Assembly (NCBI GenBank): GCA_016196885.1
Contig: JACPWU010000021.1
Coordinates: 3,618 to 67,617 of the forward strand
DNA from: Chlamydiota bacterium
Lineage (GTDB): Bacteria > Auribacterota > JACPWU01
Direction of reading: 5' to 3'
Length of the DNA: 64,000 nt
Made by a program: the position numbers and the translations under genes. Positions 18,811-59,375 of the stretch are shown in pieces (positions within the stretch are counted from its first letter, which is position 1; each line of letters begins with the position of its first letter). The notes beneath the pieces are model-generated. The model was not told the DNA's origin, searched no databases, and saw nothing but the letters and a program-made list of their open reading frames with translations.

Positions 18811-18881
18811 TGCCCGGTGGTGTAATGGTAACACAGCAGTTTTTGGAGCTGCTTTTCTAGGTTCGAATCCTAGCCGGGCAG
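18811..18881 (+). tRNA. tRNA-Gln (anticodon UUG)
   Basis: Hand-folded cloverleaf: acceptor tgcccgg/ccgggca with U1-A72 typical of tRNA-Gln, D-stem gtgt/acac, anticodon stem gcagt/gctgc with loop ttTTGga, T-arm ctagg-ttcgaat-cctag. Confidence 0.8.
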
Positions 18882-19033
18882 CTTAAATACCGTTGATCGT
18901 GCAACGTTGTTCGTTCTTCGTTAAAAGCATGACCCTTCCTCGAAATACAAAATTAGGCCTTAGAATATATCTTAAAATAGAAAGATCGTCGAATTGAAAA
19001 AATCAGAGAAAAGCTCTTTGGGAGGGAAATTTT

Positions 19034-23177: not shown

Positions 23178-23279
23178 AAATCTCAAATCCAAATATCAAA
23201 AATCAAAGATCAAAATTAAGGAAGAATTCAATTTAATGGACTCCTTAATTTTGGATTTTGAATTTTGGACTTTGATTTT
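23178..23279. promoter_or_regulatory. Palindromic array of ATCAAA(A) heptamers in the divergent purN / sigma-54-regulator promoter region
   Basis: Left arm tcaaatccaaatatcaaaaatcaaagatcaaaatt, right arm aattttggattttgaattttggactttgatttt, around an aagga...tcctt centre. Confidence 0.4.
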
Positions 23280-23288
23280 AAGGTAACC

Positions 23289-24719
23289 ATGGCCTATAAA
23301 ATTTTAATCGTAGATGATGACGAAGCCATTCGCTATTCGGTTTCCCGCATGCTTTCAGAAGAAGGCTATGAAATCCTTTCTGCCTCCTCCACAAAAGAAG
23401 CGATGGATGTCACCTCTAGGGAATCACCCGACACCGTTCTCATGGACATTCGCATGGGAACGAGCTCGGGCCTTGAAACCCTTCGCGAACTTAAAAAAAT
23501 AGATGAGAAACTGCCTGTGATTCTGATGACCGCCTTTGGAACCACACAAACAGCCATCGAGGCCATGAAGCGCGGGGCCTTTGATTATGTTCTTAAACCT
23601 TTCGAACCTTCGGAATTAAAAGAACTCATTCAAAAAGCCGTCCATGCCCGTATTTCCATGCATCAAAAAGTGAATTTTGAACCCGGGACAGCCATCAACC
23701 TCGAGCAGGACCTCATTGTAGGATCCTCTAAAAAGATGCAAGAGGTTTATAAAATGATCGGGCAAGTAGCCCCCAAAGATGTTTCTCTCTTGATTCGGGG
23801 TGAAAGTGGGACGGGTAAAGAATTAGTAGCCCGAGCCGTTTACCATCATAGCGCACGACGAGATAAACCCTTTTTACCTGTAAACTGCGCCGCTATTCCG
23901 GAAGCCCTTTTGGAAAGCGAACTTTTCGGACATGAGAAAGGGGCCTTCACGGGAGCTTCTTCCCAACGCATTGGGAAATTCGAACAATGTCATGAGGGAA
24001 CGATTTTCTTGGATGAAATTGGGGACATGGCTCCGTCTACACAAGCAAAATTTTTACGTGTTCTTCAAGAAAAAGAATTTCAAAGAATCGGAGGAACCCA
24101 AACGCTGCGTGTGAACGTTCGTGTCATCGCTGCAACCAATAAAAATCTTGAAGAGGAAATGAAAAAAGGTCATTTTAGAGAAGACCTGTTTTACCGCCTG
24201 AACACGATCACGATTTGGCTTCCCCCCTTGCGCGAGAAAAAAGAAGACATCCCAGAATTATGTCTCTACTTTCTAAAAAGATTTTCCCTGGAATTCAACA
24301 AGAATATTCTCGGATTTCATCCCGCGGGTCTTAAGGCCCTGACCCATTATTCCTGGCCGGGGAATATTCGAGAATTGGAGAACACGATCAAAAGGATGGT
24401 GATCACCACCAAGGGCAATTTAATATTGCCAGAAGACATTCAAATGCCTGAAGGGGAAAAAGAAAAGGGTCCAGGGTCCAGGATCCAAGGGAACATTCCC
24501 CAGATTGCTCAAACCATCTTTGATCTGATTCTAGAAGCCCAGGGACGCAATGAACAAGGTGAGATCATGGACCATGTCGAAAAAGAGCTGATCAAATTAG
24601 CTTTGGAAGAAACGCAAGGCAACCAACTTAAGGCTGCTCAAATCTTGGGGATGAATCGCTCAACTTTGCGAAAAAAAATTGAAACCTACAAAATCGTCAA
24701 AGGAGTGGTGGTGGAATAA
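23289..24719 (+). CDS. Sigma-54-dependent two-component response regulator (NtrC family)
   Basis: REC domain, AAA+ sigma-54 interaction domain with GESGTGKE and GAFTGA motifs, C-terminal Fis-type HTH; ATG at 23289 preferred over the track's TTG at 23265. Confidence 0.8.
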   Translation: MAYKILIVDDDEAIRYSVSRMLSEEGYEILSASSTKEAMDVTSRESPDTVLMDIRMGTSSGLETLRELKKIDEKLPVILMTAFGTTQTAIEAMKRGAFDYVLKPFEPSELKELIQKAVHARISMHQKVNFEPGTAINLEQDLIVGSSKKMQEVYKMIGQVAPKDVSLLIRGESGTGKELVARAVYHHSARRDKPFLPVNCAAIPEALLESELFGHEKGAFTGASSQRIGKFEQCHEGTIFLDEIGDMAPSTQAKFLRVLQEKEFQRIGGTQTLRVNVRVIAATNKNLEEEMKKGHFREDLFYRLNTITIWLPPLREKKEDIPELCLYFLKRFSLEFNKNILGFHPAGLKALTHYSWPGNIRELENTIKRMVITTKGNLILPEDIQMPEGEKEKGPGSRIQGNIPQIAQTIFDLILEAQGRNEQGEIMDHVEKELIKLALEETQGNQLKAAQILGMNRSTLRKKIETYKIVKGVVVE

Positions 24720-39462: not shown

Positions 39463-39601
39463 ATACGGTTAAAAGTTGGAAGTTTTTAGAGGAGTTTATT
39501 TTTAACAATTTTGTACATCGTTCTTCTAAATTTTTTTGTGAGCCCTGTTTGTTAATCTGGAAGAACTTACACAAACCCACAAAAAATGTAAGGGCAAATC
39601 A

Positions 39602-39629
39602 TTGACTTTCTTTAGGAGTGTTGTATATT
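39602..39629 (+). promoter_or_regulatory. Sigma-70-type promoter TTGACT-16 bp-TATATT
   Basis: Near-consensus -35/-10 hexamers with 16-bp spacer; predicted TSS about 39636. Confidence 0.55.
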
Positions 39630-39639
39630 GAGGGGTAGA

Positions 39640-39762
39640 AGGTGATATAGATATTCTCTGATAAGGGCAAACTATCCGTAAGGATAGGACGCAAAGCCAT
39701 GGGCCCCTGGGTAGCTAGGGAGGGGGGTCGCCAGGTTGCCGGAGCATAGGCTGAAGAGTCAA
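39640..39762 (+). promoter_or_regulatory. Candidate c-di-GMP-I (GEMM) riboswitch aptamer
   Basis: GGGCAAAC, then 5-bp stem with GUAA (GNRA) tetraloop, then GGACGCAAAGCC, then a second GC-rich hairpin. The junction strings and stem length match the Vibrio cholerae Vc2 aptamer as recalled from memory. Confidence 0.6.
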
Positions 39763-39814
39763 GAAAAGCGTCTATTCTTTTACGGAAGTGAAAGAATAGA
39801 CGCTTTTCTTTTTT
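39763..39814 (+). terminator. Intrinsic terminator / expression platform (18-bp stem gaaaagcgtctattcttt and its complement, loop tacggaagtg, then TTTTTT)
   Basis: Perfect 18-bp stem followed by a T-run, 50 nt upstream of the I9-like gene start. Confidence 0.75.
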
Positions 39815-39864
39815 ACGTGTTTTAACGTCTTGTGTGTGCATCCGCGTTCAGAATAGGGAGAAGA

Positions 39865-40188
39865 ATGAAAAGGGTCCTGATCTGCCTATTGGGGATGGGT
39901 ATGATGATCGAGGCAATGAGTGGAGCGAACGCCCGAGGGGAGGAAGGAAAAAGGGGGAGGGAAATTTTTGTTCGTTTTAAGGCTGAAGTCTCTCAAGACA
40001 GGATACAGGATCTCTTCAAGGAATACCAATTAGAGGTGATTGAGAAATACCCCGCCATTGAGAATCTTTATTTGTGCAAGGTTCCATTGGATTTGAAAAC
40101 GCAAGCGGTCATTCGAAAATTAGAAAAGGAGGGCGATGTTGCCTATGTAGAGGCAAATCAGAAAGTGGAAGCACTCGAAGTCCGATAG
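39865..40188 (+). CDS. Secreted standalone subtilisin-propeptide (peptidase inhibitor I9)-like protein
   Basis: SD GGGAGAAG; signal peptide MKRVLICLLGMGMMIEAMSGA; EIFVRFKAEV...LYLCKVPLDL...VAYVEANQKV aligns with the two propeptides of the downstream protease. Confidence 0.65.
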   Translation: MKRVLICLLGMGMMIEAMSGANARGEEGKRGREIFVRFKAEVSQDRIQDLFKEYQLEVIEKYPAIENLYLCKVPLDLKTQAVIRKLEKEGDVAYVEANQKVEALEVR

Positions 40189-40229
40189 GGTCGAAGTCGT
40201 AGAGTCATTACCAGAGAGGCCGGGGTTCT

Positions 40230-43200
40230 ATGATGAAGTCCAACTGGATGAAGAGGGGGATTGTGTCATGCATCTTGGGAGTGGGGTTGTGGGGAAGCGC
40301 CAGTCTCTTTTCATTTTCTGATGAAGAAAAGAAATACGCCCCCGATGAATTGCTCGTCCGCTATAAACCAGGGGTTTCGAGTGCCCAAATCCGGCAGTTG
40401 AGAAAGGCCATCCATGCCGAACGTCTCGAGAAGTTTTCCATCAATGATGTGCAGCATTATAAACTCGAGGCCGGTCAGTCTCTTCAAGAAGCTCTTTCAG
40501 AGTTAAAGGGTTCCTCCAAAGTTCTTTACGCAGAACCCAATTATGTTGTGGAGTTAAATCAAACCCCCAACGATCCCGACTTTTCCAAACTCTACGGAAT
40601 GAATAACACCGGCCAGACCGGCGGTACAGCTGACGCCGACATTGATGCCCCCGAGGCTTGGAATACACAGACTGGAAATCAGAACCTCGTGATCGCGATT
40701 ATTGATACGGGCGTGGACTACAACCATCCGGATCTGGCAGCAAATATCTGGACCAATCCCAAGGAAATTGCAGGCAACGGCATAGACGATGACGGCAACG
40801 GTTACGTGGACGATATTCATGGTTGGGATTTTTATAACAAGGACGCCGATCCCATGGATGATCATTACCATGGCACTCACGTAGCGGGCACCATTGCAGG
40901 AGTGGGCAATAACGGCATCGGTGTGACAGGCGTGGTCTGGAAAGCCAAGATCATGGCACTTAAATTCTTGAGCTCGGGTGGATCGGGATACACTTCAGGT
41001 GCGATTTCGGCGATCAATTATGCCACTCAAATGGGCGCAAAAATTTCCAATAACAGCTGGGGGGGCGGGGGCTATTCGCAGGCCTTGAAAGATGCCATCA
41101 CGGCCAATCAGAATGCAGGGGCTTTGTTTGTAGCCGCTGCAGGAAATAGCGGCGTCAATGCAGACACTTCTCCCATGTATCCCGCGGCTTATGACGTGGC
41201 CAATATTATTTCTGTGGCTGCGACGGACGCTAAAGATCAATTGGCCTCTTTTTCAAATTATGGAAAAACCAGCGTGGATTTAGGGGCCCCGGGGGTGAGT
41301 ATTTACAGCACTGCTCCCAACAACACGTATAAAACCTTAAGTGGGACTTCCATGGCAACCCCTCATGTCGCGGGAGCGGTCGCCTTAATCTGGTCTCAAT
41401 TTCCGAGCCTGACGAATCTTCAGGTGAAAGATAAATTGCTCGTCTCCACAGATCCGATTTCAGCCCTGTCTGGAAAAACGGTGAGCGGGGGAAGGCTCAA
41501 CATCAATAATTTTATGGAGAATGACACGACGGCCCCGGCCCCTGTCACTAATTTAGCCACTTCCAGCGTTTCCTATTTTACCACCACACTCACGTGGACA
41601 GCGACGGGAGACGATGGTTTCACAGGACAGGCAAGCACCTATGATTTGCGCTATTCTACGAGTGCCATCACAGAGTCTAATTTTTCCTCGGCCCTTCAGG
41701 CGTCCGGGCTCCCCTCACCTAAGACTTCAGGACAGACAGAGACTTTTAAGGTGACAGGACTTTCTTCCAACACGGCTTATTATTTTGCACTCAAGGTGAA
41801 GGACAACGTGGGAAATACTTCTTCCCTTTCGAATGTGATTTCAGCCACCACCTCTCAGGGAACCACTTTCTACCAGGATAATTTTGAGAATGGCCAGGGA
41901 AGTTGGGTCACAGGAGGAACAAACGGCACGGGTGGAGGGACCTTGTGGCATCTTTCAACCCGTAAATCCAACAGTGCGACCCATTCCTTCTATTATGGCA
42001 GTGAGTCCAAGGGTAATTACAACACAGGACAAGCCAATTATGGTTGGATCACTTCTCCCAAAATTTATTTAACCTCGGCTACCAATTCCACTTTGATTTT
42101 TAACCACTATCTGACGACGGAGAATCTGGCCCCCTATGATGAAGGAAGTGTCAGAATTTCAACAGACGGCGGATCCACTTTTACAACGCTCAACAAATTC
42201 TATTCAACCAGCTCAAAATGGCAACAGGTTTCCGTAGATCTTTCGAAATATGATGGGAAAACCGTCTACATTCAATTTTATTTTACGACGCTGGACGCGC
42301 TCTACAACAGTTATGAAGGTTGGTATGTGGACGATGTGCAGGTGATGGCAGATGGGCAAGGTGACACCACACCTCCTGCCGCGATCAGTAATTTGGCAAT
42401 TTCTTCTCTGGGTCAATATTCCCTGACATTGAACTGGACGGCGACAGGAGACGATGGGAATACGGGAACAGCCTCTTTCTACGATTTACGCTACTCCACG
42501 AGCACCATCACAGATTCCAACTTTTCTTCGGCCGTTCAAGTCTCAGGCCTCTCTTCCCCGAAGGCGGCCGGAAATTCCGAATCCTTTGAAGTGAAGAATC
42601 TTTCCAGTGGAGTCACTTATTATTTTGCGATCAAGGCCACGGACGATCTTTCCAATACCTCCGCTATTTCAAACGGGGTGAATGGAAAAACAAAAACGGG
42701 ACCCAAAATCAGCGTGTCTCCCAGCACCCTTGCGAAAGTCAGTTTGGATGTTGGGAAATCAACCACACAGTCCCTGACGATCCAAAACACAGGCGATGAA
42801 AATTTGACATTTGACATCACAGAAATTCCGACAACCACCGCCAGCAGTGCTGAATCTTCCTCCTCTTTGGAAACGGGATCGAGCGCGTCAGCTGCCTATG
42901 CACCTTCCCAAATTTTGGTGAAATTTAAAGAGGGCCTGTCTGAGGCAGCCATTCATGGACTCGGAGATTCAGTGGACGCAAGAACCGTTAAAATTTATTC
43001 CGACATTGATGTCCATTTGATTGAAACCGCTTCAGGATTGGATGCCCAGGAAATGGCCAGAATGTACCTGGCGAGCGGCTTGGTAGAATATGCAGAACCC
43101 AATTATGTTGTTCAAGCCTTAAGTACCTTCCCCAACGATTCTTCTTTCTCTCAACTCTACGGCCTTCACAACACAGGACAAACGGGGGGAACCGCAGATG

Positions 43201-46200
43201 CGGACATTGACGCCCCTGAGGCCTGGGACACTACAAAGGGGGCAAGCTCGGTCGTGGTGGCAGTGATTGACACGGGTGTAGATTACACACATCCTGACTT
43301 ATCAGCCAACATGTGGACAAACTCAGGAGAAATCCCAAACAATGGATTGGACGATGACGGAGATGGTTATGTGGACGACTATCGAGGATGGGATTTTGTG
43401 AACGAAGACAATGATCCTATGGATGACAATAAGCATGGCACACACGTTTCCGGAACCATTGGTGGAGTTGGAAACAACGGTACAGGCGTCGCCGGTGTTT
43501 GTTGGAACGTCAAAATCATGCCTCTTAAATTCTTAAGTGGGAGTGGGTCTGGATACACCTCGGATGCAGTCGAGGCCGTTCTTTACGCCAATAAAAAAGG
43601 TGCGAATGTGATGAGCAACAGCTGGGGCGGCGGCGGATATTCTCAGGCCCTGTATGACGCTATTAAAGCGGCCGAGGTGAAAGGCATTCTCTTCGTAGCC
43701 GCCGCGGGAAATAGCTCGAGCAACAATGATCAAGTGGCCAATTATCCCTCGAATTACAACATCTCGAACGTCATTGCCGTCGCAGCCACAGATGCGAACG
43801 ATGCCCTGGCCTGGTTTTCAAATTATGGAGCGAACACGGTTCATTTGGGCGCCCCGGGGGTCAGCATCTATAGTACCCTGCCGGGAAACACCTATGGCTC
43901 TTTGAGTGGAACTTCCATGGCGACCCCCCATGTAGCTGGGGCTTGTGCCCTCGTGTGGTCCGCGAATCCTTCCTGGAATTATGCGAAAGTGAAAAATCAG
44001 ATCATGGTGGGCACAGATAAAATTTCGAGCATGAGTGGTAAAACAGTTTCAGGCGGTCGGCTGAATGTTTACAAAGCCCTTCAAGCGGCAGAAACCACGC
44101 CTCCCTCAGCCGTCACCGATTTGTCCAGCTCCATGGTTTCTTTTTCCACCCTTAAACTTAAATGGACGGCAACGGGGGATGATGGCAATACCGGAACAGC
44201 CACCTCTTACGAGATTCGTTATTCTACAAGTTCTATCACGAGTTCTAACTTTAGTTCCGCTACGTTGATCAGCAATACCCCCACACCCAAATCTGCTGGA
44301 GGGGCTGAAGAATTCAACGTCACAGGCCTTTCCCAAAAGACAACTTATTACTTTGCCATGAAAGTGACCGATGATGCCAGCAACACCTCTGGCCTTTCGA
44401 ATGTGACCTCTGCCACCACAGACGAAGCGGTGGTAACCTACTTGGATAGCATGGAAACAGGAGCCGGATGGACGGTGACAGGCTTGTGGCATCTTTCCAC
44501 ACGAAAATCTAACAGCCCCACGCATTCTTTCTATTATGGAGACGAGACCAAAGGAAATTACGATACAGGTTCTACCACCCAAGGGACGCTGACATCCTCT
44601 ACCATCGACCTTTCATCGGGGGTCACGCCTCAACTCTCTTTTCAATATTGGAGAAAAGTGGAGTCGGGAGGGATCTATGACAAAACCTATTTAGAAATTT
44701 CAAAAGACAATGGCTCCAATTGGACCCAGCTTTGGTACAAGAACTCCAGCAACACCTCTGAACAAGCCTGGACCAGTTCTGGACCCTTGGATTTAAGCTC
44801 TTACAAAGGCGCTAAAGTCCTTTTGAGATTTACCTTTGATTCTGTGGATGCCTACTTGAATTTTTATGAAGGATTCTACGTGGATGATGTTCAAATCTTG
44901 GATTCAAAAACAGATTTTAACTGGCTCTCCGTGCAACCAGCAACAGGAACCTTAACAGCCAATCAATCTAGCACCGTGACCTTAACCTACACAGCCGTTT
45001 CTAGCGGAACTTACAAAGGAGCCATTCTGATTAAGAGCAATGACCCTGCCAAACCCTCTACCACCCTTTCTCTAGAGTTGACAGCCACTCAAGACACAAC
45101 AGCCCCCTCCGCCATCAGCAATTTAAAAGTTGCCTCCATTGCCAGCAGCAACACCTCTCTAACCCTGACATGGACAGCGCCAGGCGATGACGACAACGTG
45201 GGAACGGCCAGCTCTTATGAAATTCGCTACTCTACAAGCCTCATAACAGATGCTAATTTCAGCGCGGCCACTTTGGCTCCAAATCCACCCACGCCCCAAG
45301 TCGCGGGAAGCACTGAAACCTTCAGCCTGACAGGGCTCGCCCTTTCACAAAATTATTATTATGTTGCGATCAAGACCCAGGACGATGTGGGGCAAGTTTC
45401 TAGCCTCTCCAATGTGGTCAAGACGAGTGACTTGGATTCCGATGGGGACGGGTTGTGCGACCAAGATGAGTACAGCATGGGCACAGATCCTCTCAAGTCA
45501 GATACAGATTCCGATGGGTTCAGCGATGGCCAGGAAAAATCGATTGGGACGGATCCTGTGAAGAGCACAGATTTCCCAGCCACGATTATTCTGACATGCG
45601 ACAATGCCTATGAAATTTACATCAATGGTGTCTTCAAAGGGAATGACTCTAATTGGACAAACAAAGAAACATATTATGCAAAGTTAGGAGACACCATCGC
45701 CATTAAAGGCATAGATCTCGGCGGCATTGCAAGTCTCCTTTGCCAAATCAGCCATGGAAATAAAATCATGCCTTCCAATTTTCTCTGGAAGGCTTCACCT
45801 CAAGCCGCCTCGGGCTGGACAAATCCAAACTTTGACGACTCTTCTTGGCCAGGTGCAGTAGAACATTTTGCATACGGACATGGGCCCTGGGAACAATGGG
45901 TGAACGGATTTGACGCCAGCAACAATTGGATCTGGACGAATCGGCCGGAGGAACATGATACTGTCTATTTTCGGCGGAAGGTGGACTTTTCACAAAATGC
46001 CCTCTTACGGGTTACGGCAGATAATGCCTTTGAAGCTTGGCTGGATGGTCAATACCTGGGATCCAGCAATGTGTGGCATCTGCCCAAATTTTTTATTGGG
46101 ACTGTCAGTGAAGGCAGCCTCATCGCCCTTCACGGGATAGACCTGGGAGGGATAGGAGGACTGCTTGCCTCTCTTACCTACGTGGACTCGAATGGAAAAA

Positions 46201-47336
46201 GGCAAATGGTAGGAACCAACTCCTCATGGAAAATAAGTACCACATCCTCCTCGGGCTGGCAAAACACAGGCTTTGACGAAAACAGCTGGTCCTCAGCGAC
46301 AGAGTGGGCTGCCTTCGGAAGTGGGGTGTGGGGTTCTTTTGACATGGGTGCCCATTTTTCGAATGCAAGCCAAGCCAAGTGGATTTGGGCCTCGGACCCC
46401 TATTCTATCGATGACATCTATGCGAGAAAAACGATCCTCACCCCCAACGCAACACTCAGCATGACGGCGGACAACAAGTTCAAAGTTTATCACAATGGGA
46501 ACCTCGTTGCCTCCAGCTCCCAATGGTGGTCCCCCGCCGTCGTCGGTCTTAATAATCTCCAAAATGGAGACGTCATTGCTGTGAGGGCCGATGATGAAGG
46601 AGGCATTGCAGCGTTTCTTGCAAAGCTGGACTTTAATGGAACTCAAATCTTCTCAAATACAACATGGAAGGCCTCCACAGGACCTTTCTGGGAAGCAGAC
46701 CTCTCTTGGACGTCAAAAAGCTATGACGACTCGAACTGGACAAGCGCCTTCCCAGTCGGAGGCAACGGAATATCCCCGTGGGGATATTTGTCTGACTGTG
46801 GGAGTGCGCAATGGATTTGGGCCTCATCAGACACGGACGGTGTCAACACCTCTTTTTTTAGGTGGACGGTGGGAACCAACAATACAGAAGTAGGTGTAAC
46901 CTCTTTTCTGGTCAGCGCAGACAATGAATACAAGTTCTACAAGAATGGTGTGCTCATCACATCAGGAAGTCGGTGGTATATGCCGGAGAGCTTCACATGT
47001 TTATTATCCCCTGGGGATGTCATTGCGATCGAGGCAAGAGATTATGGTTATAAAGCGGGACTTTTGCTCTACGCCTCCGGGGCTTATAACCTCGTCTCGG
47101 ACAGCTCTTGGAAAATGAGTACCACCGAACAGTCGGGAGGATGGGCGAGTAAAACATTTGACGACTCTGGCTGGGCTTCAGCCAGTGATCACGGGGCCTA
47201 CGGCATTGCACCTTGGGGAAGCAATGCTTCAGGATTCCCAACCAGTTCTTCAGCTCGTTGGATTTGGGGCCCCAACAATCAGACTGGGGCAACAAACATT
47301 GATTCCCACGTCTTCTTCAGAAAGAAAATTGCTTAA
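40230..47336 (+). CDS. 2368-aa secreted multidomain protein with two complete propeptide(I9)-subtilisin(S8) units, Fn3-like and MAM/lectin-like jelly-roll domains, thrombospondin-type-3-like Ca-binding repeats and four C-terminal ~150-aa beta-sandwich repeats
   Basis: Signal peptide; catalytic triads present twice (IDTGVDY(N/T)HPDL, HGTHV(A/S)GTI, GTSMATPHVAG); repeated LxWTAxGDDGxxGxAxxYxxRYSTSxITxxNFSSA modules; DSDGDG motifs; repeats containing WIW and FDDSxW. Confidence 0.8.
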   Translation: MMKSNWMKRGIVSCILGVGLWGSASLFSFSDEEKKYAPDELLVRYKPGVSSAQIRQLRKAIHAERLEKFSINDVQHYKLEAGQSLQEALSELKGSSKVLYAEPNYVVELNQTPNDPDFSKLYGMNNTGQTGGTADADIDAPEAWNTQTGNQNLVIAIIDTGVDYNHPDLAANIWTNPKEIAGNGIDDDGNGYVDDIHGWDFYNKDADPMDDHYHGTHVAGTIAGVGNNGIGVTGVVWKAKIMALKFLSSGGSGYTSGAISAINYATQMGAKISNNSWGGGGYSQALKDAITANQNAGALFVAAAGNSGVNADTSPMYPAAYDVANIISVAATDAKDQLASFSNYGKTSVDLGAPGVSIYSTAPNNTYKTLSGTSMATPHVAGAVALIWSQFPSLTNLQVKDKLLVSTDPISALSGKTVSGGRLNINNFMENDTTAPAPVTNLATSSVSYFTTTLTWTATGDDGFTGQASTYDLRYSTSAITESNFSSALQASGLPSPKTSGQTETFKVTGLSSNTAYYFALKVKDNVGNTSSLSNVISATTSQGTTFYQDNFENGQGSWVTGGTNGTGGGTLWHLSTRKSNSATHSFYYGSESKGNYNTGQANYGWITSPKIYLTSATNSTLIFNHYLTTENLAPYDEGSVRISTDGGSTFTTLNKFYSTSSKWQQVSVDLSKYDGKTVYIQFYFTTLDALYNSYEGWYVDDVQVMADGQGDTTPPAAISNLAISSLGQYSLTLNWTATGDDGNTGTASFYDLRYSTSTITDSNFSSAVQVSGLSSPKAAGNSESFEVKNLSSGVTYYFAIKATDDLSNTSAISNGVNGKTKTGPKISVSPSTLAKVSLDVGKSTTQSLTIQNTGDENLTFDITEIPTTTASSAESSSSLETGSSASAAYAPSQILVKFKEGLSEAAIHGLGDSVDARTVKIYSDIDVHLIETASGLDAQEMARMYLASGLVEYAEPNYVVQALSTFPNDSSFSQLYGLHNTGQTGGTADADIDAPEAWDTTKGASSVVVAVIDTGVDYTHPDLSANMWTNSGEIPNNGLDDDGDGYVDDYRGWDFVNEDNDPMDDNKHGTHVSGTIGGVGNNGTGVAGVCWNVKIMPLKFLSGSGSGYTSDAVEAVLYANKKGANVMSNSWGGGGYSQALYDAIKAAEVKGILFVAAAGNSSSNNDQVANYPSNYNISNVIAVAATDANDALAWFSNYGANTVHLGAPGVSIYSTLPGNTYGSLSGTSMATPHVAGACALVWSANPSWNYAKVKNQIMVGTDKISSMSGKTVSGGRLNVYKALQAAETTPPSAVTDLSSSMVSFSTLKLKWTATGDDGNTGTATSYEIRYSTSSITSSNFSSATLISNTPTPKSAGGAEEFNVTGLSQKTTYYFAMKVTDDASNTSGLSNVTSATTDEAVVTYLDSMETGAGWTVTGLWHLSTRKSNSPTHSFYYGDETKGNYDTGSTTQGTLTSSTIDLSSGVTPQLSFQYWRKVESGGIYDKTYLEISKDNGSNWTQLWYKNSSNTSEQAWTSSGPLDLSSYKGAKVLLRFTFDSVDAYLNFYEGFYVDDVQILDSKTDFNWLSVQPATGTLTANQSSTVTLTYTAVSSGTYKGAILIKSNDPAKPSTTLSLELTATQDTTAPSAISNLKVASIASSNTSLTLTWTAPGDDDNVGTASSYEIRYSTSLITDANFSAATLAPNPPTPQVAGSTETFSLTGLALSQNYYYVAIKTQDDVGQVSSLSNVVKTSDLDSDGDGLCDQDEYSMGTDPLKSDTDSDGFSDGQEKSIGTDPVKSTDFPATIILTCDNAYEIYINGVFKGNDSNWTNKETYYAKLGDTIAIKGIDLGGIASLLCQISHGNKIMPSNFLWKASPQAASGWTNPNFDDSSWPGAVEHFAYGHGPWEQWVNGFDASNNWIWTNRPEEHDTVYFRRKVDFSQNALLRVTADNAFEAWLDGQYLGSSNVWHLPKFFIGTVSEGSLIALHGIDLGGIGGLLASLTYVDSNGKRQMVGTNSSWKISTTSSSGWQNTGFDENSWSSATEWAAFGSGVWGSFDMGAHFSNASQAKWIWASDPYSIDDIYARKTILTPNATLSMTADNKFKVYHNGNLVASSSQWWSPAVVGLNNLQNGDVIAVRADDEGGIAAFLAKLDFNGTQIFSNTTWKASTGPFWEADLSWTSKSYDDSNWTSAFPVGGNGISPWGYLSDCGSAQWIWASSDTDGVNTSFFRWTVGTNNTEVGVTSFLVSADNEYKFYKNGVLITSGSRWYMPESFTCLLSPGDVIAIEARDYGYKAGLLLYASGAYNLVSDSSWKMSTTEQSGGWASKTFDDSGWASASDHGAYGIAPWGSNASGFPTSSSARWIWGPNNQTGATNIDSHVFFRKKIA

Positions 47337-56029: not shown

Positions 56030-56698
56030 TTATTTTGAGGCAATACTAACATCCTTGATTACTTGGGGCAGGTATAAATTCATCCAAGAGGTTTGTTTCT
56101 GAGAAAGAACCTCTTTTGTCCCAATACCCTTTGTCATTTCAAAACAGCCATTCATTTGAATTAAGAGTTCACGGACCTCTAAGCTTTCTGAAAGATTCTC
56201 CAAGGCCTTTCTAAATTCACTCGGGTAACTCGCATGAAGAAGGCATAGGTCATAAATATCTGTAGGTTCAATTCGATCCACAACACAATAGAGTTTCTCC
56301 AGGATCATGTCTTTTTCAGATAAAATCGGGCACCGAAGTTCGGGCTCATAAAGCAATGTGACCGGACGCCAAATTTTTCCAATATCGACTTTTGTTTCAA
56401 GTTTGGGATATCTGATATACAGTTGACAGAAGTGTTCTCCACGACGCGTAATTCTATATTTAACCTTCTCAAGATTACACTGCTTCACAAGCTCAAGCAT
56501 CGCCTTGTAACTAGAGATTTCTTCTTTCGGGGAGAGAATATCTACGTCCTTACTGTTGCGCGCATGTTGTGGAAGTCTTAAGGTTAGCCACGTTCCTCCC
56601 GAGAGGGCATAATTTTTACGGATGAGCGGACATTTTAAAATCCATTTGGCAAGTGATAAAATATCTTGCCTTGAAGGCTCTTCAGGCATTTTTTTCAT
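56030..56698 (-). CDS. AbiEii/DUF1814-family nucleotidyltransferase (type IV TA toxin-like)
   Basis: N-terminal motif LSGGTWLTLRL...RNSKDVDIL matches the GGTxL...RxSxDhD signature of AbiEii-type NTases; overlaps the stop of the upstream HTH gene. Confidence 0.55.
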   Translation of the reverse strand: MKKMPEEPSRQDILSLAKWILKCPLIRKNYALSGGTWLTLRLPQHARNSKDVDILSPKEEISSYKAMLELVKQCNLEKVKYRITRRGEHFCQLYIRYPKLETKVDIGKIWRPVTLLYEPELRCPILSEKDMILEKLYCVVDRIEPTDIYDLCLLHASYPSEFRKALENLSESLEVRELLIQMNGCFEMTKGIGTKEVLSQKQTSWMNLYLPQVIKDVSIASK

Positions 56699-57086
56699 AA
56701 AGACCTCGAATCAGACTTTTGCGAAAAATTCTTTCAAGAAGGGTTCTTCCTTTGCGCACATATTTTTCCGCCACAGACCTTTGAATCATTTTAGGAATGA
56801 GTTGTGGGGCACGCCTAAAAAGAATGGGAATCATTTCTTCTTTCGATGGGATTGATTGTTCTCTCCAGAAGATTGAATAGGGAGCTATTTTTTGAGGTCT
56901 TCCAGAGGAATAGTGTCCTTGAATTTTTTTAAAACGATCGAAAGAAGCTAATGGAATAAACCAGGTATGTCCCTTTTTCAAACATTGCTTCAAGCGCTTT
57001 TCCCGGCAATATCGAGCCATCAAGGACTTCGTAATTCCTAATCTTGCCGCTGCCTCAGTGGCTGTTAAGAAAACATTCTTCATCAT
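56682..57086 (-). CDS. HTH (excisionase/HTH_17-like) DNA-binding protein, putative antitoxin/regulator partner of the NTase
   Basis: MMKNVFLTATEAAARLGITKSLMARYCREKRL helix-turn-helix; track ORF (TTG start inside repeat H2) trimmed to the internal Met pair. Confidence 0.45.
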   Translation of the reverse strand: MMKNVFLTATEAAARLGITKSLMARYCREKRLKQCLKKGHTWFIPLASFDRFKKIQGHYSSGRPQKIAPYSIFWREQSIPSKEEMIPILFRRAPQLIPKMIQRSVAEKYVRKGRTLLERIFRKSLIRGLYEKNA

Positions 57087-57201
57087 GATTTTATTATACA
57101 CTATTTTGAACAATTTTTGAAAAATTTTGGGATGGTAGACTTTGGTCAAATGGACTGGATTTGATTCGGGAATTTTAAAGGTTAAAGATTTTAAGTATTT
57201 T

Positions 57202-57242
57202 AACCCTTGGACGTTTGAACTTTTCAACCCTTAAACTTTTTT
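57202..57242. repeat. Element H2 between the HTH gene and mnmE
   Basis: aacccttggacgtttgaacttttcaacccttaaacttttttt, similar to H1. Confidence 0.45.
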
Positions 57243-58652
57243 TCACTTCCCAATGCAAAACCTCGAGAAAAGGGTCTGGATCATTTCTTCATTGACAGAG
57301 GTGCCCAATAATTCATCCCATTTCAGAAGGGCGCTGTGAAGATCGCTGGAGATCAAGTCATCTCCTAAATTGTTTTCTAAGGCGTTCTGGGCACTCCTCA
57401 AGTCTTTCTCCACCGCCTGCAAGATTTCTTGATGCCGGGCGTTGACGAGGTATTGGCATTCTAAAATGTCATTTTTGGATTTCACCCATTTTAGAAGAGC
57501 CTCTTCCAGCGTTTTCAAACCCTGTCCCAAAAGGAGAGAAGTTTCAAAAAAAGGATGGCGAGGAAAGGTTTTTAAAATTTCACTTTTCGAAAAATTTTTG
57601 TTCAAATCCACTTTGTTAAAAATCAACATCGCATCTTTTCCATTGCCCAACCAGGGTTGGACCTTGGTAAGATCAAAAGGGGAGCCAGAGACATCAAAAA
57701 TCCACAAAATTAAATCCGCTTCTTCATATTGATGATGCGTGACTTCAATTCCCTTTTTCTCGACAATGTTTTCGGGTTCTCTCAGGCCCGCCGTGTCTAC
57801 CAAACGCAAGGGAACGCCATTAAAATTCATTTCGTATTCGATAGCATCTCTCGTTGTGCCCGGTAGTTCAGTCACAATGGCCAATTCTTTTTTGGCCAAT
57901 GAATTGAGAAGACTGGATTTTCCAACATTGGGCTCTCCCATGAGAACCCCTTTAAAACCCTCTTTCAAGATGCGTCGCGTTTTGGCCCCTTTTAAAAGAT
58001 TCTGAATTTCGTCCCTGATTTCTTTTAGAAGTTGAGCGTAATCTCGCGGGGAAACGCCTTGCGGAACATATTCTGGAAAATCAATGTTGGCCTCGGTCTC
58101 GACCATCACGTCAAAAATTTTTTGACGGAGGTTGAGTAATTTTCCAGAGAATTCTCCTTTCAGTTGCTGGAGGGCATATTTTCTTTGCAGTTCGGATTTT
58201 GCCTGAATCAAATCTATAACGGCCTCTGCCTGAGAAAGGTCTAAGCGGCCATTTAAAAAGGCCCTTTGGGTGAATTCTCCTGGCCGGGCTAGGCGGGCCC
58301 CTTTTTCCAAGATGAGCGACAGAATTCTTTGAGCCAGATAGGGGCTTCCGTGGAGATAAATTTCAAAAGAGTCTTCGCAGGTGTAACTTTTGGGAGCTTT
58401 AAATACACACCCCATTCCTTCATCCAAAGCCTCTTTCTCATCCGAAACGGATCCCAAATACAAGCGCTGAATCTCAAAGGAAGAAGGGGATTTGCCTGAG
58501 GACGTCCTGAAAATTTGATCGGCGATCATGAGAGAAGCGCTCCCGCTCAAGCGAAGCACGGCCAAAGCGCCTTCTCCAAGAGGCGTGGCAAGGGCCACAA
58601 TGGTGTCTTCAGCAATATTGGAGACATCTTTATTTTTCATGCCCATTTCCAT
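57243..58652 (-). CDS. mnmE: tRNA modification GTPase MnmE/TrmE
   Basis: G1 GEPNVGKSSL, G3 DTAG, G4 NKVD, C-terminal CIGK. Confidence 0.85.
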   Translation of the reverse strand: MEMGMKNKDVSNIAEDTIVALATPLGEGALAVLRLSGSASLMIADQIFRTSSGKSPSSFEIQRLYLGSVSDEKEALDEGMGCVFKAPKSYTCEDSFEIYLHGSPYLAQRILSLILEKGARLARPGEFTQRAFLNGRLDLSQAEAVIDLIQAKSELQRKYALQQLKGEFSGKLLNLRQKIFDVMVETEANIDFPEYVPQGVSPRDYAQLLKEIRDEIQNLLKGAKTRRILKEGFKGVLMGEPNVGKSSLLNSLAKKELAIVTELPGTTRDAIEYEMNFNGVPLRLVDTAGLREPENIVEKKGIEVTHHQYEEADLILWIFDVSGSPFDLTKVQPWLGNGKDAMLIFNKVDLNKNFSKSEILKTFPRHPFFETSLLLGQGLKTLEEALLKWVKSKNDILECQYLVNARHQEILQAVEKDLRSAQNALENNLGDDLISSDLHSALLKWDELLGTSVNEEMIQTLFSRFCIGK

Positions 58653-58674
58653 AACCTTATGGGTTCCAGAAACT

Positions 58675-59082
58675 TCATCGTGTCAGCCATTCCTTTAGAA
58701 AGTCTGCGGGAGATCGGACATGGACTCCCAACTTTTTCGCGGCATGAAAATGTCTTGCATTGCCCGTGACCAGGACCTCCACATGGCCCGTGACAGCCAC
58801 CTCGATGAAGGCACGGTCCGTCTCATCCAAAAACCGATCAGGGATGACTTGTGGCAAAACCAGCAGTGCCTGGTCTAACAAGGCATCCAAAAAGTCGTCA
58901 ACACTTTGATTAGAAAGGGAAAACTTTCCACGGGTGAGAACTTCACGATACTCATTGCAAATGCGATCGTCCACGCAAAGTTCCACATCACCTCGTAAGA
59001 GGAGTTGAACAACTCGATGGCAAGTCCCACCTGGTGTGAGAATGGACGACACCAAAACATTTGTATCTAGAACAATCCTCAT
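58675..59082 (-). CDS. PIN-domain ribonuclease-type toxin
   Basis: MRIVLDTNVLVSS with conserved acidic residues; ATGA overlap with the upstream antitoxin stop. Confidence 0.6.
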   Translation of the reverse strand: MRIVLDTNVLVSSILTPGGTCHRVVQLLLRGDVELCVDDRICNEYREVLTRGKFSLSNQSVDDFLDALLDQALLVLPQVIPDRFLDETDRAFIEVAVTGHVEVLVTGNARHFHAAKKLGVHVRSPADFLKEWLTR

Positions 59083-59375
59083 GGTGAAGGATGCCGTCTT
59101 CCTCTTCGAACTTGCTGAATCCACCCTTCGATCTGTGTCTTGCTCAGCCGATTCAACCCCTTTCGTCTGGCCTCTTCCTGTAGTTTAATCAAAGCGGCCA
59201 TACCCCGAGCTTGACGCCAAACACGCAAGGTTTGTTCGAAGGATCTCTCATTCAGAGGCGCGAGCAATCCCATGGGTTTACCTCTGGATGTCAATACCAG
59301 CTCTCTTTCTTCCTTTAGCATTCGCCACACAGAGCCAGGGTGGAGACGAAATTCTCTGACCGGTACGAATTTCAT
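59079..59375 (-). CDS. Phd/YefM-like antitoxin
   Basis: MKFVPVREFRLHPGSVWRMLKEERELVLTSRGKPMGLL is a typical Phd N-terminus; trimmed from the track ORF. Confidence 0.55.
   Translation of the reverse strand: MKFVPVREFRLHPGSVWRMLKEERELVLTSRGKPMGLLAPLNERSFEQTLRVWRQARGMAALIKLQEEARRKGLNRLSKTQIEGWIQQVRRGRRHPSP

What the first reader, a model, noticed from the sequence alone, without database searches (positions are those of the whole stretch)
39602..47336. Candidate c-di-GMP-I (GEMM) riboswitch with promoter and terminator controlling a standalone I9 inhibitor gene and a 2368-aa double-subtilisin gene
A 300-bp non-coding gap upstream of the I9-like gene contains three elements in order.
- A near-consensus promoter TTGACT-16 bp-TATATT at 39602..39629.
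- The string GGGCAAAC, then a 5-bp stem capped by GUAA, then GGACGCAAAGCC, then a GC-rich hairpin (39665..39760).
- A perfect 18-bp-stem intrinsic terminator with T6 (39763..39814), ending 50 nt before the I9 gene SD.

The two junction strings, the stem length and the GNRA loop correspond position-for-position to the V. cholerae Vc2 c-di-GMP-I aptamer as I recall it (GGGCAAACC-CAUUC-GAAA-GAGUG-GGACGCAAAGCC). A leader of this shape (aptamer followed by an intrinsic terminator) is the classic architecture of a transcriptional riboswitch. c-di-GMP control of secreted proteases and adhesins is established in, for example, Clostridioides difficile. Here the regulated cargo is unusual: a free-standing propeptide-like I9 domain (likely chaperone/inhibitor) plus a giant secreted protein carrying two full I9-S8 units.
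Basis: partly seen in the sequence, partly recalled or inferred. Interest (0 to 1): 0.85.

Follow-up and report, generated by a model that had tools for sequence, protein, structure and literature searches.

The report
c-di-GMP riboswitch controlling giant protease operon
The leader is a genuine class I c-di-GMP riboswitch that most likely shuts off a secreted giant protease operon when the messenger is high, which makes it a new example of a well-known kind of switch in a little-studied bacterial lineage.

Summary
Window 39656-39744 (+) matches the Rfam c-di-GMP-I clan above threshold: RF03167, 67.4 bits against a gathering score of 59, E 9e-14.

- **Class.** The best model is the 'GGC' variant, but the aptamer carries the canonical G20/A47/C92 ligand contacts. 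I read it as an ordinary c-di-GMP-I aptamer with a GUAA loop, not a GGC variant.
- **Flanks.** A TTGACT-16-TATATT promoter lies upstream. A 20-bp terminator with T6 lies downstream.
- **Genes.** Next come a 107-aa secreted prodomain-like protein and a 2368-aa protein with two intact subtilase units.
- **Conservation.** Six other loci encoding 50-66 % identical giant subtilases carry the same aptamer. On a six-leader subset, 11 of 24 pairs show compensatory changes.
- **Switch.** The terminator's 5' arm and loop (39768-39785) are complementary to the aptamer's P1a 3' half and junction (39676-39693). This pairing is conserved, with a compensating change, in three relatives. Ligand binding and antitermination therefore exclude each other, so I predict an OFF switch.
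- **Host.** The source is a metagenome-assembled genome labelled 'Chlamydiae bacterium'. It looks like a deep, free-living PVC-group lineage, and one relative is labelled Auribacterota.

Verdict: new member of a known kind, of modest interest.

The parts
39602..39629 (+). Sigma-70-type promoter: -35 TTGACT (39602-39607), 16-nt spacer, -10 TATATT (39624-39629). The inferred transcription start is near 39636.
   Evidence: Consensus scan, 10 of 12 matches. The hexamers align with TTGACA-16-TATAAT of sister locus L011 while the spacer has diverged. The start site is inferred, not measured.
39656..39744 (+). c-di-GMP-I (GEMM-I) aptamer.
- P1: CUCUG 39656-39660 with CGGAG 39740-39744.
- J1/2: 39661-39666, with G20 = G39666.
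- P1a (P2): 39667-39692, comprising the G21-C46 and C22-G45 pairs, the 6-bp stem CUAUCC/GGAUAG and the GUAA loop 39678-39681.
- C44 = C39690; A47 = A39693.
- P1b (P3): 39695-39737, with G83 = G39730.
- C92 = C39739.
   Evidence: Rfam RF03167, 67.4 bits, E 9e-14. My own model R1 gives 77 bits. On six related leaders, 97.9 % of cells are paired and 11 of 24 pairs carry double changes. Position mapping to Vc2 follows PMC5049679 Table 1 and PMC4744006.
39676..39693 (+). Aptamer strand of the predicted antiterminator: CCGUAAGGAUAGGACGCA. It covers part of the P1a loop, the P1a 3' strand, C44, G45, C46 and A47.
   Evidence: RNAduplex with 39768-39785 gives -19.6 kcal/mol. It is the best partner anywhere in the leader, and 15 of 1000 shuffles do as well. 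It is present in the unconstrained minimum-energy fold of transcripts ending at 39786-39790.
39768..39785 (+). Terminator 5' arm plus loop, GCGUCUAUUCUUUUACGG. This is the other strand of the predicted antiterminator.
   Evidence: L011 has the identical strand. L009 and L016 have UGCGCC where the aptamer has GGCGCA, a compensating A-U to G-C change.
39762..39814 (+). Intrinsic terminator: 20-pair stem 39762-39809, then a T run 39809-39814.
   Evidence: Terminator scan. The hairpin dominates the minimum-energy fold of the full leader.
39865..40188 (+). 107-aa secreted, free-standing subtilase-prodomain-like protein (I9-like). Its Shine-Dalgarno sequence is GGGAG at 39856-39860.
   Evidence: - PF22148, E 4.6e-8, 33.8 bits against a cut-off of 21.
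- 30 % identity to the signal peptide + prodomain of the giant protein, E 7e-9.
- The model has a beta-alpha-beta-beta-alpha-beta core (pLDDT 84-91), and the top PDB fold matches are subtilisin prosegments 3cnq_P and 1spb_P.
- The same gene order occurs in L009, L011 and L016.
40230..47336 (+). 2368-aa secreted protein. It has a signal peptide, then two units of prodomain-S8-fn3-beta-sandwich that are 50.6 % identical to each other, then Ig/fn3 domains, TSP3 calcium-binding repeats and C-terminal lectin/CBM67-like repeats.
   Evidence: - Domains from Pfam.
- Catalytic motifs occur at 157/214/372 and 1012/1069/1227, and the two units align over 842 columns.
- The C-terminal region matches PDB lectins 6t0q and 6kbj (E 3e-23) and rhamnosidase 3w5m.
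- The ORF is uninterrupted.

Best explanation
This is a transcriptional class I c-di-GMP riboswitch in the 5' leader of a two-gene operon. The operon encodes a secreted, free-standing subtilase prodomain and a giant secreted double subtilase with lectin-like repeats.

**How it most likely works**
- Transcription starts about 20 nt upstream of P1.
- When c-di-GMP is bound, it stacks on the G21-C46 pair, contacts G20, A47 and C92, and locks the aptamer core. The 20-bp terminator then forms and transcription stops at the T run before the genes.
- When c-di-GMP is low, the aptamer's P1a 3' half and junction (39676-39693) pair with the terminator's 5' arm and loop (39768-39785). This 15-16-bp antiterminator covers the loop-proximal nucleation site of the terminator hairpin, so the polymerase reads through.
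- The operon is therefore predicted to be ON at low c-di-GMP and OFF at high c-di-GMP.

**Shown:** aptamer identity, structure and conservation; terminator; mutually exclusive pairing; gene content.

**Inferred:** the ligand (from sequence signature only), the direction of regulation, kinetic control in the window (where the terminator is much more stable than the antiterminator), and the role of the small protein as a trans-acting chaperone or inhibitor.
For: **Aptamer**
- RF03167 scores 67.4 bits against a gathering score of 59, E 9e-14, and a second clan family also passes its threshold.
- The ligand-contact and architecture positions are G39666, A39693, C39739 and the C39690-G39730 pair. 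They match the roles of Vc2 G20, A47, C92 and the interhelical C-G pair.

**Conservation**
- The same aptamer lies upstream of orthologous operons or genes in L009 (61.3 bits), L011 (47.8), L016 (35.8), L012/L014 (62.5) and L024 (66.8) by Rfam.
- L026 scores 58.4 bits with my model R1 and was not used to build it.
- In the six-sequence alignment, 97.9 % of cells pair, 11 of 24 pairs have double changes, and slid controls pair at 27-46 %.

**Switch**
- Antiterminator duplexes run from -19.6 to -20.8 kcal/mol in the window, L009, L011 and L016. In each leader this is the best available partner, and 5-15 of 1000 shuffles do as well.
- The antiterminator appears in the unconstrained minimum-energy fold of the nascent transcript in all four loci.
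- L009 and L016 carry a compensating change: aptamer GGCGCA with terminator UGCGCC, against GACGC with GCGUC in the window.
- In L009 and L016 the antiterminator state is also the more stable fold of the full leader (-53.6 against -51.4, and -99.2 against -93.4).
- In L024 and L026 the terminator 5' arm can again pair with aptamer strands: the 3' strands in the fold prediction for L024, the P1a/core region for L026.
- L012 places its Shine-Dalgarno sequence in the P1 3' strand. All of these designs imply OFF.

**Precedent**
- C. difficile class I riboswitches act as OFF switches. Cdi-1-12 lies upstream of the secreted protease gene zmpI, whose transcript falls 62.6-fold at high c-di-GMP (PMC6200980).
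Against: - No ligand binding or termination assay exists; the ligand is inferred from sequence alone.
- The best Rfam model is the GGC variant, whose ligand I could not establish because the defining paper is not in the library.
- In the window and L011 the terminator state is far more stable than the antiterminator state (-71.2 against -51.4, and -98.6 against -90.3). Read-through there would need kinetic trapping.
- The covariation for the antiterminator rests on essentially one compensating event among four related leaders.
- The aptamer alignment was hand-trimmed to fit the structure.
- No GGDEF, EAL, HD-GYP or PilZ gene is present in the roughly 65 kb of this contig whose gene tables I could read. 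The organism's ability to make c-di-GMP is therefore not shown.
- Two orthologous protease loci, L023 and L025, lack the aptamer.
Confidence: 0.72

Rival explanations
1. The aptamer and terminator are as described, but the switch works the other way. Under this reading, c-di-GMP binding prevents termination and induces the protease operon (an ON switch).
For: - The terminator is self-contained and, in the window, about 20 kcal/mol more stable than the antiterminator state. The default state could therefore be 'terminated'.
- Some class I riboswitches are ON switches. Examples are Cdi-1-1 in C. difficile (PMC6200980) and Vc1, which that paper reports controlling downstream gene expression in response to c-di-GMP (PMC4744006).
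Against: - The only strong alternative partner for the terminator 5' arm lies inside the aptamer core, including the G21-C46 and C22-G45 pairs on which the ligand stacks. A bound aptamer therefore cannot supply the antiterminator.
- I found no complementarity between the P1 3' strand or the linker (39740-39761) and the terminator.
- L012 puts its Shine-Dalgarno sequence in the P1 3' strand, which is also an OFF design.
Confidence: 0.15
2. The aptamer senses a ligand other than c-di-GMP. Candidates are 3',3'-cGAMP or the unknown ligand of the 'GGC' variant class, because the best-scoring Rfam model is RF03167 rather than RF01051.
For: - RF03167 outscores the other clan families in the window and in L009.
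- Orthologous leaders vary at ligand-contact positions: A at position 20 in L012 and U at position 92 in L024.
- A G20A change is reported to let a class I aptamer bind cGAMP (PMC7288161).
Against: - At the position where the two consensus sequences differ (RF03167 ACGCGAAG, RF01051 ACGCAAAG), the window has A. Positions 20 and 92 are G and C, so the full canonical signature is present.
- Sister leaders of the same operon score best on RF01051 (L011, L016).
Confidence: 0.08
3. The element is a decaying or non-functional relic. The promoter and terminator act constitutively, so the terminator is simply a leaky attenuator.
For: - Two orthologous protease loci (L023, L025) have lost or never had the aptamer.
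- No c-di-GMP enzymes are visible in the accessible part of the contig.
Against: - All ligand-contact and tertiary-pair nucleotides are intact.
- Compensatory changes maintain every helix across leaders whose proteins are only 50-66 % identical.
- The complementarity between the expression platform and the aptamer is maintained with a compensating change.
Confidence: 0.03

Closest known systems
c-di-GMP-I (GEMM-I) riboswitch, Rfam RF01051 / clan CL00126; prototype Vibrio cholerae Vc2
   Same: - Three-helix junction with P1, P1a and P1b.
- GGCAAAC and ACGCAAAGC junction strings.
- G20, A47 and C92 ligand contacts, and the interhelical C44-G83 pair.
- A GNRA-type tetraloop on P1a.
- Location in a 5' leader.
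   Different: - The tetraloop is GUAA and no canonical 11-nt GAAA receptor is visible in P1b. From my own knowledge of Sudarsan et al. 2008, this corresponds to the 'type 2' GEMM subtype.
- The distal part of P1b is highly variable in this group, with 71-nt and 108-nt insertions in relatives.
- The expression platform competes with P1a and the junction rather than with P1.
c-di-GMP-I-GGC variant, Rfam RF03167
   Same: It is the best-scoring covariance model for the window (67.4 bits) and for L009 (61.3 bits). Overall shape, including P1, is shared.
   Different: The model consensus has G at the A47 position (ACGCGAAG). The window and all its relatives have A (ACGCAAAG). The defining substitution is therefore absent, and I do not file the window as a GGC variant.
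Clostridioides difficile Cdi-1-12 riboswitch upstream of zmpI (PMC6200980, PMC4591827)
   Same: A class I c-di-GMP riboswitch in the leader of a secreted protease gene. It acts as an OFF switch, so the protease is made when c-di-GMP is low.
   Different: - The cargo there is a small zinc metalloprotease in a Gram-positive pathogen.
- Here it is a 2368-aa double subtilase plus a free-standing prodomain, in an uncultured Gram-negative PVC-group bacterium.
- Regulation here is predicted, not measured.
GEMM-Ib / c-AMP-GMP riboswitches of Geobacter
   Same: Same fold and same Rfam family. The orthologous leader in L012 has A at position 20, the hallmark change.
   Different: The window itself has G at position 20, so it does not carry the cGAMP signature.
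Subtilase propeptides and I9 inhibitors (subtilisin BPN' prosegment, POIA1)
   Same: The small protein has the prodomain fold and a Pfam prodomain hit. It most resembles the giant protein's own N-terminal prodomain.
   Different: It is encoded as a separate secreted protein, although both S8 units already carry their own prodomains. Whether it acts as a chaperone or an inhibitor is untested.

Membership tests
c-di-GMP-I riboswitch clan (Rfam CL00126) | Covariance-model score at or above the curated gathering score | tested here: met
   RF03167 scores 67.4 bits against 59, E 9e-14. A second family of the clan also reached its own gathering score at the same place; its score is hidden by clan competition.
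c-di-GMP-I riboswitch clan (Rfam CL00126) | P1/P1a/P1b three-way junction supported by covariation | tested here: met
   On six leaders, 97.9 % of cells pair and 11 of 24 pairs have changes on both sides. Slid controls pair at 27-46 %, and 0 of 500 shuffles reach the observed value. Caveat: the alignment was hand-trimmed and fitted to the structure.
c-di-GMP-I riboswitch clan (Rfam CL00126) | Ligand-contact nucleotides G20, A47 and C92, and the G21-C46 closing pair | tested here: met
   The corresponding window positions are G39666, A39693, C39739 and G39667-C39692, by the Rfam alignment. Their roles come from PMC5049679 Table 1 and PMC4744006.
c-di-GMP-I riboswitch clan (Rfam CL00126) | Interhelical Watson-Crick C-G pair between P1a and P1b (C44-G83 in Vc2) | tested here: met
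   C39690 and G39730 occupy these positions and are invariant in all six leaders. PMC4744006 describes the pair as universally conserved. An invariant pair cannot by itself show pairing.
c-di-GMP-I riboswitch clan (Rfam CL00126) | GNRA tetraloop on P1a docking into a receptor in P1b | tested here: inconclusive
   The GUAA tetraloop is present at 39678-39681. No 11-nt GAAA receptor is recognisable in P1b. L024 does have GAAA plus a CCUAAU...AAUGG receptor-like motif. Docking cannot be tested from sequence.
c-di-GMP-I riboswitch clan (Rfam CL00126) | Selective, high-affinity binding of c-di-GMP | not testable with these tools
   This needs in-line probing, ITC or gel-shift with RNA 39650-39750.
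c-di-GMP-I-GGC variant (RF03167) | G in place of A47 (model consensus ACGCGAAG) | tested here: not met
   The window has ACGCAAAG, as do L009, L011, L016, L012 and L026. L024 has ACACAAAG, also with A at position 47. That 'GGC' names positions 20/47/92 is my reading of the two consensus lines; the defining paper was not available.
GEMM-Ib (c-AMP-GMP) riboswitch | A at position 20 | tested here: not met
   The window has G39666. Only the orthologous leader L012/L014 has A there.
Transcriptional riboswitch with intrinsic terminator | GC-containing hairpin followed by a U run, with a pairing that excludes either the aptamer or the terminator | tested here: met
   The terminator is at 39762-39814. 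The antiterminator pairs 39676-39693 with 39768-39785 at -19.6 kcal/mol. It is present in nascent-transcript minimum-energy folds and conserved in three relatives. Ligand-dependent termination itself was not tested.
Peptidase S8 (subtilase) | S8 domain with an Asp-His-Ser catalytic triad | tested here: met
   PF00082, E 2.8e-124, two stretches. The motifs are DTG at 157/1012, HGTH at 214/1069 and GTSMATPH at 372/1227.
Subtilase prodomain / I9-like inhibitor | Prodomain sequence family and beta-alpha-beta-beta-alpha-beta fold | tested here: met
   PF22148 scores 33.8 bits against a cut-off of 21. The single-sequence model has a core pLDDT of 84-91, and its top PDB matches are subtilisin prosegments with target-normalised TM-scores of 0.68-0.69, though E-values are only about 2e-3. 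Inhibitor or chaperone activity is not testable here.

The most novel reading that the evidence does not exclude
A deep, apparently free-living PVC-group lineage may use c-di-GMP, through a riboswitch conserved across several uncultured lineages, as the master OFF signal for a giant lectin-tipped double or triple subtilase. Its genomes are deposited as 'Chlamydiae', and pathogenic Chlamydia is reported to lack c-di-GMP enzymes.

Within this one orthologous leader family the ligand-contact nucleotides have also diverged in place: G20/C92 in the window, A20 in L012 and U92 in L024. Orthologous switches on the same cargo may therefore have been retuned to different cyclic dinucleotides.

A second novel aspect is the expression platform. 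It works by invading P1a and the ligand-stacking G21-C46 pair rather than P1.
Probability: 0.2. Interest if true: 0.6.

Novelty: new member of a known kind. Interest (0 to 1): 0.35.

Why it matters
**For the organism.** The riboswitch gives a concrete, testable regulatory link in an uncultured PVC-group lineage about which almost nothing is known. It predicts that the lineage makes c-di-GMP, and that a very large secreted protease with sugar-binding repeats is produced only when c-di-GMP is low, in the motile, foraging or dispersal state. This parallels ZmpI control in C. difficile.

**For riboswitch biology.** The set of orthologous leaders is a compact natural series for three questions:
- how expression platforms are built: transcriptional, using P1a or the junction, against translational, using P1 and the Shine-Dalgarno sequence;
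- how large insertions in P1b are tolerated;
- whether changes at positions 20 and 92 retune ligand specificity on an unchanged cargo.

**For annotation.** A top hit to RF03167 does not by itself indicate a GGC variant. In addition, the public records call only the C-terminal 60-66 % of the giant gene.

Tried and rejected
1. **GGC variant definition.** I tried to read the paper that defined the GGC and UAU variants (Weinberg et al. 2017 PNAS) by DOI and by a guessed PMC id. It is not held. Text searches for 'c-di-GMP-I-GGC' gave only lists of family names, and the 2017 NAR paper does not describe it. The variant's defining position is therefore taken from the two Rfam consensus lines.
2. **Full-leader fold.** The plain minimum-energy fold of the full leader does not reproduce P1 or the junction. 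This is expected for a ligand-dependent tertiary fold, and I did not count it against the aptamer.
3. **c-di-GMP enzymes and effectors.** I looked through every called gene of record positions 41127 to about 102240, plus a Logan contig that covers the window's right end. No GGDEF, EAL, HD-GYP or PilZ family appears. This is too little of the genome to draw a conclusion.
4. **Small-protein homologues.** A search with the small protein finds only itself. Profile-guided scans found four genome and four metagenome loci. Only L015 (the same locus as L009) and L016 belong to this operon type, and L017-L022 have no aptamer.
5. **Taxonomy.** MnmG is 74-81 % identical to a few sister metagenome genomes. 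Identity then drops to 64 % or less against genomes labelled Chlamydiota, Omnitrophota, Planctomycetes, Abyssobacteria and Verrucomicrobiae, and no cultured chlamydia appears in the top 120. I therefore do not rely on the 'Chlamydiae' label.
6. **Minus-strand ORF.** The 80-aa ORF at 39599-39841 overlaps the leader on the minus strand. Neither NCBI nor Logan calls it as a gene, so I dismissed it.
7. **Second antiterminator.** A possible second antiterminator from the extreme 5' leader (39636-39652) appears in one truncated fold. It has no clear counterpart in L011, so I did not adopt it.


Full report
**1. What is in the sequence**

- The consensus scan finds TTGACT-16-TATATT at 39602-39629 (10 of 12 matches).
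- It also finds a 20-pair hairpin at 39762-39809 followed by a T run.
- One promoter-like site per 1.1 kb is expected by chance. However, the two hexamers align with TTGACA-16-TATAAT of the sister locus L011 while the spacer between them has diverged.

**2. Is it a c-di-GMP-I aptamer?**

Yes.
- cmscan of the whole window against Rfam 15 gives one riboswitch hit, at 39657-39744 (+). It is RF03167 (c-di-GMP-I-GGC), 67.4 bits against a gathering score of 59, E 9e-14.
- A second family of clan CL00126 also passed its own threshold at that place and was suppressed as the lower-scoring overlap.
- The Rfam alignment and direct reading give:
  - P1 = CUCUG 39656-39660 with CGGAG 39740-39744;
  - J1/2 = AUAAGG, ending in G39666;
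  - outer P1a pairs G39667-C39692 and C39668-G39691;
  - a 6-bp stem CUAUCC/GGAUAG capped by GUAA;
  - GAC with C39690, then A39693 and A39694;
  - P1b = 39695-39737, with an unpaired G39730;
  - J3/1 = G39738 and C39739.
- The published contact table for the Vc2 structure lists the P1 closing pair G14-C93, J1/2 ending in G20, the P2 closing pair G21-C46, A47 sandwiched between the ligand's guanines, and C92 in J3/1 (PMC5049679). A further paper lists G20, A47 and C92 as the ligand contacts and describes an interhelical C-G pair as universally conserved (PMC4744006).
- The window therefore carries G20, A47, C92 and the C44-G83 pair.

**3. GGC variant or canonical?**

- The cmscan output prints both consensus lines. 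RF03167 reads GGACGCGAAgC and RF01051 reads GACGCAAAgC. They differ at the A47 position.
- The window has A there. So do all related leaders.
- Two sister leaders of the same operon score best on RF01051 (L011 47.8 bits, L016 35.8 bits).
- I conclude the window is a canonical G/A/C aptamer. It scores higher on RF03167 for reasons unrelated to the defining substitution. One plausible reason, which I did not test, is that RF03167 models P1 and has a simple P1b.
- I could not read the paper that defined the variant. That 'GGC' names positions 20/47/92 is my inference.

**4. Source and relatives**

- The small protein is found, exactly, on NCBI contig JACOUD010000001.1 of assembly GCA_016178005.1, labelled 'MAG: Chlamydiae bacterium'. 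The window is positions 42058-106057 of that contig.
- Gene tables show a Gram-negative, biosynthetically competent organism. They include BamA, LpxA/B/C/D/I, a type II secretion F protein, SUF, HisG, GlnD, a sigma-54 activator and ParAB-GidA-TrmE-YidC.
- MnmG is 74-81 % identical to a handful of sister metagenome genomes. It is 64 % or less identical to anything else, and no cultured chlamydia appears among the top 120 hits.
- One genome carrying the same operon is deposited as 'Candidatus Auribacterota' (L016).
- I therefore call the host a deep PVC-group lineage of uncertain phylum.
- Pathogenic Chlamydia is reported to lack GGDEF and EAL proteins (PMC3663186). That statement cannot be transferred to this organism.
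- No c-di-GMP enzyme or PilZ gene occurs in the roughly 65 kb I could inspect. This is uninformative for a genome of megabase size.

**5. Conservation of the riboswitch-protease link**

The closest homologues of the 2368-aa protein are 50-66 % identical. I fetched eight of their loci.

| Locus | Source or label | Aptamer score | Gene arrangement |
|---|---|---|---|
| L009 | GCA_964640155.1 | RF03167, 61.3 bits | small prodomain gene, then giant gene |
| L011 | GCA_016178055.1; syntenic with the window | RF01051, 47.8 bits | small prodomain gene, then giant gene |
| L016 | 'Auribacterota' | RF01051, 35.8 bits | small prodomain gene, then giant gene |
| L012 / L014 | metagenome contigs | RF01051, 62.5 bits | directly upstream of a three-S8-unit orthologue |
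| L024 | metagenome contig | RF01051, 66.8 bits | directly upstream of a three-S8-unit orthologue |
| L026 | metagenome contig | model R1, 58.4 bits (not used to build R1) | directly upstream of a three-S8-unit orthologue |
| L023 | metagenome contig | none | three-S8-unit orthologue |
| L025 | metagenome contig | none | three-S8-unit orthologue |

I cut the variable distal part of P1b out of six leaders. The segment boundaries were checked against the real sequences. I then counted pairs on the resulting alignment.
- 97.9 % of cells form standard pairs.
- 11 of 24 pairs show changes on both sides.
- Sliding the 3' partners by 1-3 columns drops pairing to 27-46 %.
- The alignment is fitted to the structure and several rows are close relatives, so the numbers are generous. 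Still, every helix shows compensatory change.

**6. The expression platform**

- The terminator is self-contained and does not overlap P1.
- Its 5' arm and loop, GCGUCUAUUCUUUUACGG (39768-39785), are complementary to CCGUAAGGAUAGGACGCA (39676-39693). That stretch covers part of the P1a loop, the P1a 3' strand, and C44, G45 and C46.
- RNAduplex gives -19.6 kcal/mol. It is the best partner for that strand anywhere in the leader, and only 15 of 1000 dinucleotide shuffles do as well.
- ViennaRNA's unconstrained minimum-energy fold of transcripts ending at 39786-39790 contains 15 of these pairs. At that point the 5' arm and loop are out but the 3' arm is not.
- The same holds in L009, L011 and L016, at -20.4 to -20.8 kcal/mol with 15-16 pairs in the nascent fold.
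- L009 and L016 carry a compensating change: aptamer GGCGCA with terminator UGCGCC, where the window has GACGC with GCGUC.
- For the full leader, the antiterminator state is the more stable one in L009 and L016 (-53.6 against -51.4, and -99.2 against -93.4 kcal/mol). It is the less stable one in the window and L011 (-51.4 against -71.2, and -90.3 against -98.6).
- In the window, read-through must therefore rely on kinetics. The antiterminator covers the loop and the loop-proximal part of the 5' arm. Only 39762-39767 stays free, and its partners are the last terminator nucleotides to be transcribed. That this delays hairpin nucleation long enough is my inference.
- More distant leaders follow the same logic with different sequences.
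  - In L026 the best partner of the terminator 5' arm is again the P1a loop/core.
  - In L024 that arm contains a perfect 10-nt complement of the P1a 5' strand and loop, although the fold prediction pairs it with the aptamer's 3' strands instead.
  - In L012 a GTG start at 5938 with a signal peptide follows a G-rich Shine-Dalgarno sequence that is part of the P1 3' strand.
- In every case the ligand-bound fold is the repressing one.

**7. Direction and biology**

- The antiterminator needs the very nucleotides that form the G21-C46 and C22-G45 pairs on which the ligand stacks. A bound aptamer and the antiterminator therefore exclude each other.
- The prediction is an OFF switch. The operon is expressed at low c-di-GMP.
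- This matches the experimentally established behaviour of C. difficile class I riboswitches. One of them, Cdi-1-12, lies upstream of the secreted protease gene zmpI, whose transcript falls 62.6-fold at high c-di-GMP (PMC6200980).

**8. The cargo**

- **Small protein.** It has a signal peptide and a prodomain (PF22148). It is 30 % identical to the signal peptide plus first prodomain of the giant protein. It folds in silico as beta-alpha-beta-beta-alpha-beta, and subtilisin prosegments are the best PDB matches.
- **Giant protein.** It has two units of about 850 aa, each a prodomain and an S8 domain followed by fn3 and beta-sandwich domains. The units are 50.6 % identical, and both have intact catalytic motifs. 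TSP3 calcium-binding repeats follow, and then about 580 aa that match fungal or bacterial lectins and the sugar-binding module of a rhamnosidase.
- A free-standing prodomain beside an enzyme that already has two is unusual. A role as a trans-acting inhibitor or folding aid is plausible but untested.

**9. Verdict**

- This is a new member of a known riboswitch class with a familiar kind of cargo, so the surprise is modest.
- The more interesting points are secondary:
  - the host lineage;
  - the conserved linkage to giant multi-subtilase proteins;
  - an expression platform that invades P1a and the junction rather than P1;
  - natural changes at positions 20 and 92 in orthologous leaders.

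Noticed in passing
L012 5849-5929 (= L014 2098-2178); L024 2798-2891: Orthologous leaders upstream of orthologous giant subtilases differ at ligand-contact positions. L012/L014 have A at position 20 (GAGCAAAC), the GEMM-Ib/cGAMP-type change. L024 has U at position 92 (GGUUGUCUGG) by Rfam's own alignment. The window, L009, L011, L016 and L026 are G/A/C. Ligand specificity may have been retuned in place.
   Followed up: partly
window 40230-47336; L011 3604-10713: The public NCBI records call only the C-terminal 1427 aa of the uninterrupted 2368-aa ORF, and only 1570 of 2369 aa in the sister genome. The first prodomain-S8 unit is left unannotated.
   Followed up: yes
L012 5793, L023 2923, L024 2723, L025 2923, about L026 2790; also L011 2727: A sigma-54-type motif, TGGCAY-N5-(A/T)TGCW, lies upstream of the three-S8-unit orthologues, whether or not they carry the aptamer. 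There are 11 matches in the 693 kb of sequence scanned (both strands of the DNA held). The window has no such motif and uses a sigma-70-like promoter. The window does encode a sigma-54 activator elsewhere (23265-24719).
   Followed up: partly
L011 about 2968-3146; L016 2741-2882: The distal part of P1b tolerates large structured insertions, 108 nt in L011 and 71 nt in L016. These depress the Rfam scores (47.8 and 35.8 bits) and make Rfam mis-place the 3' end in L011.
   Followed up: partly
L023 2633-3000; L025 2400-3000: Two orthologous three-S8-unit protease loci have no c-di-GMP aptamer by Rfam or by my own model, so the riboswitch has been lost or gained within this protein family.
   Followed up: yes
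window 45588-47333: The C-terminal ~580 aa of the giant protein match PDB lectins 6t0q and 6kbj (E 3e-23) and the sugar-binding region of rhamnosidase 3w5m. This suggests glycan targeting of the protease.
   Followed up: partly
window 18811-18882: A single tRNA-Gln (anticodon TTG). It looks ordinary.
   Followed up: yes
window about 56030-59124 (L004 911-4154): Small defence/toxin-type genes (PIN_3, HTH_17 + AbiEii) sit between trmE, gidA and yidC in the origin-proximal region.
   Followed up: no
whole window: The deposited label 'Chlamydiae bacterium' is doubtful. The gene content looks free-living (lipid A pathway, HisG, GlnD, type II secretion, sigma-54 activator). MnmG is 64 % or less identical to anything outside a few sister metagenome genomes. 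A genome with the same operon is labelled Candidatus Auribacterota.
   Followed up: partly
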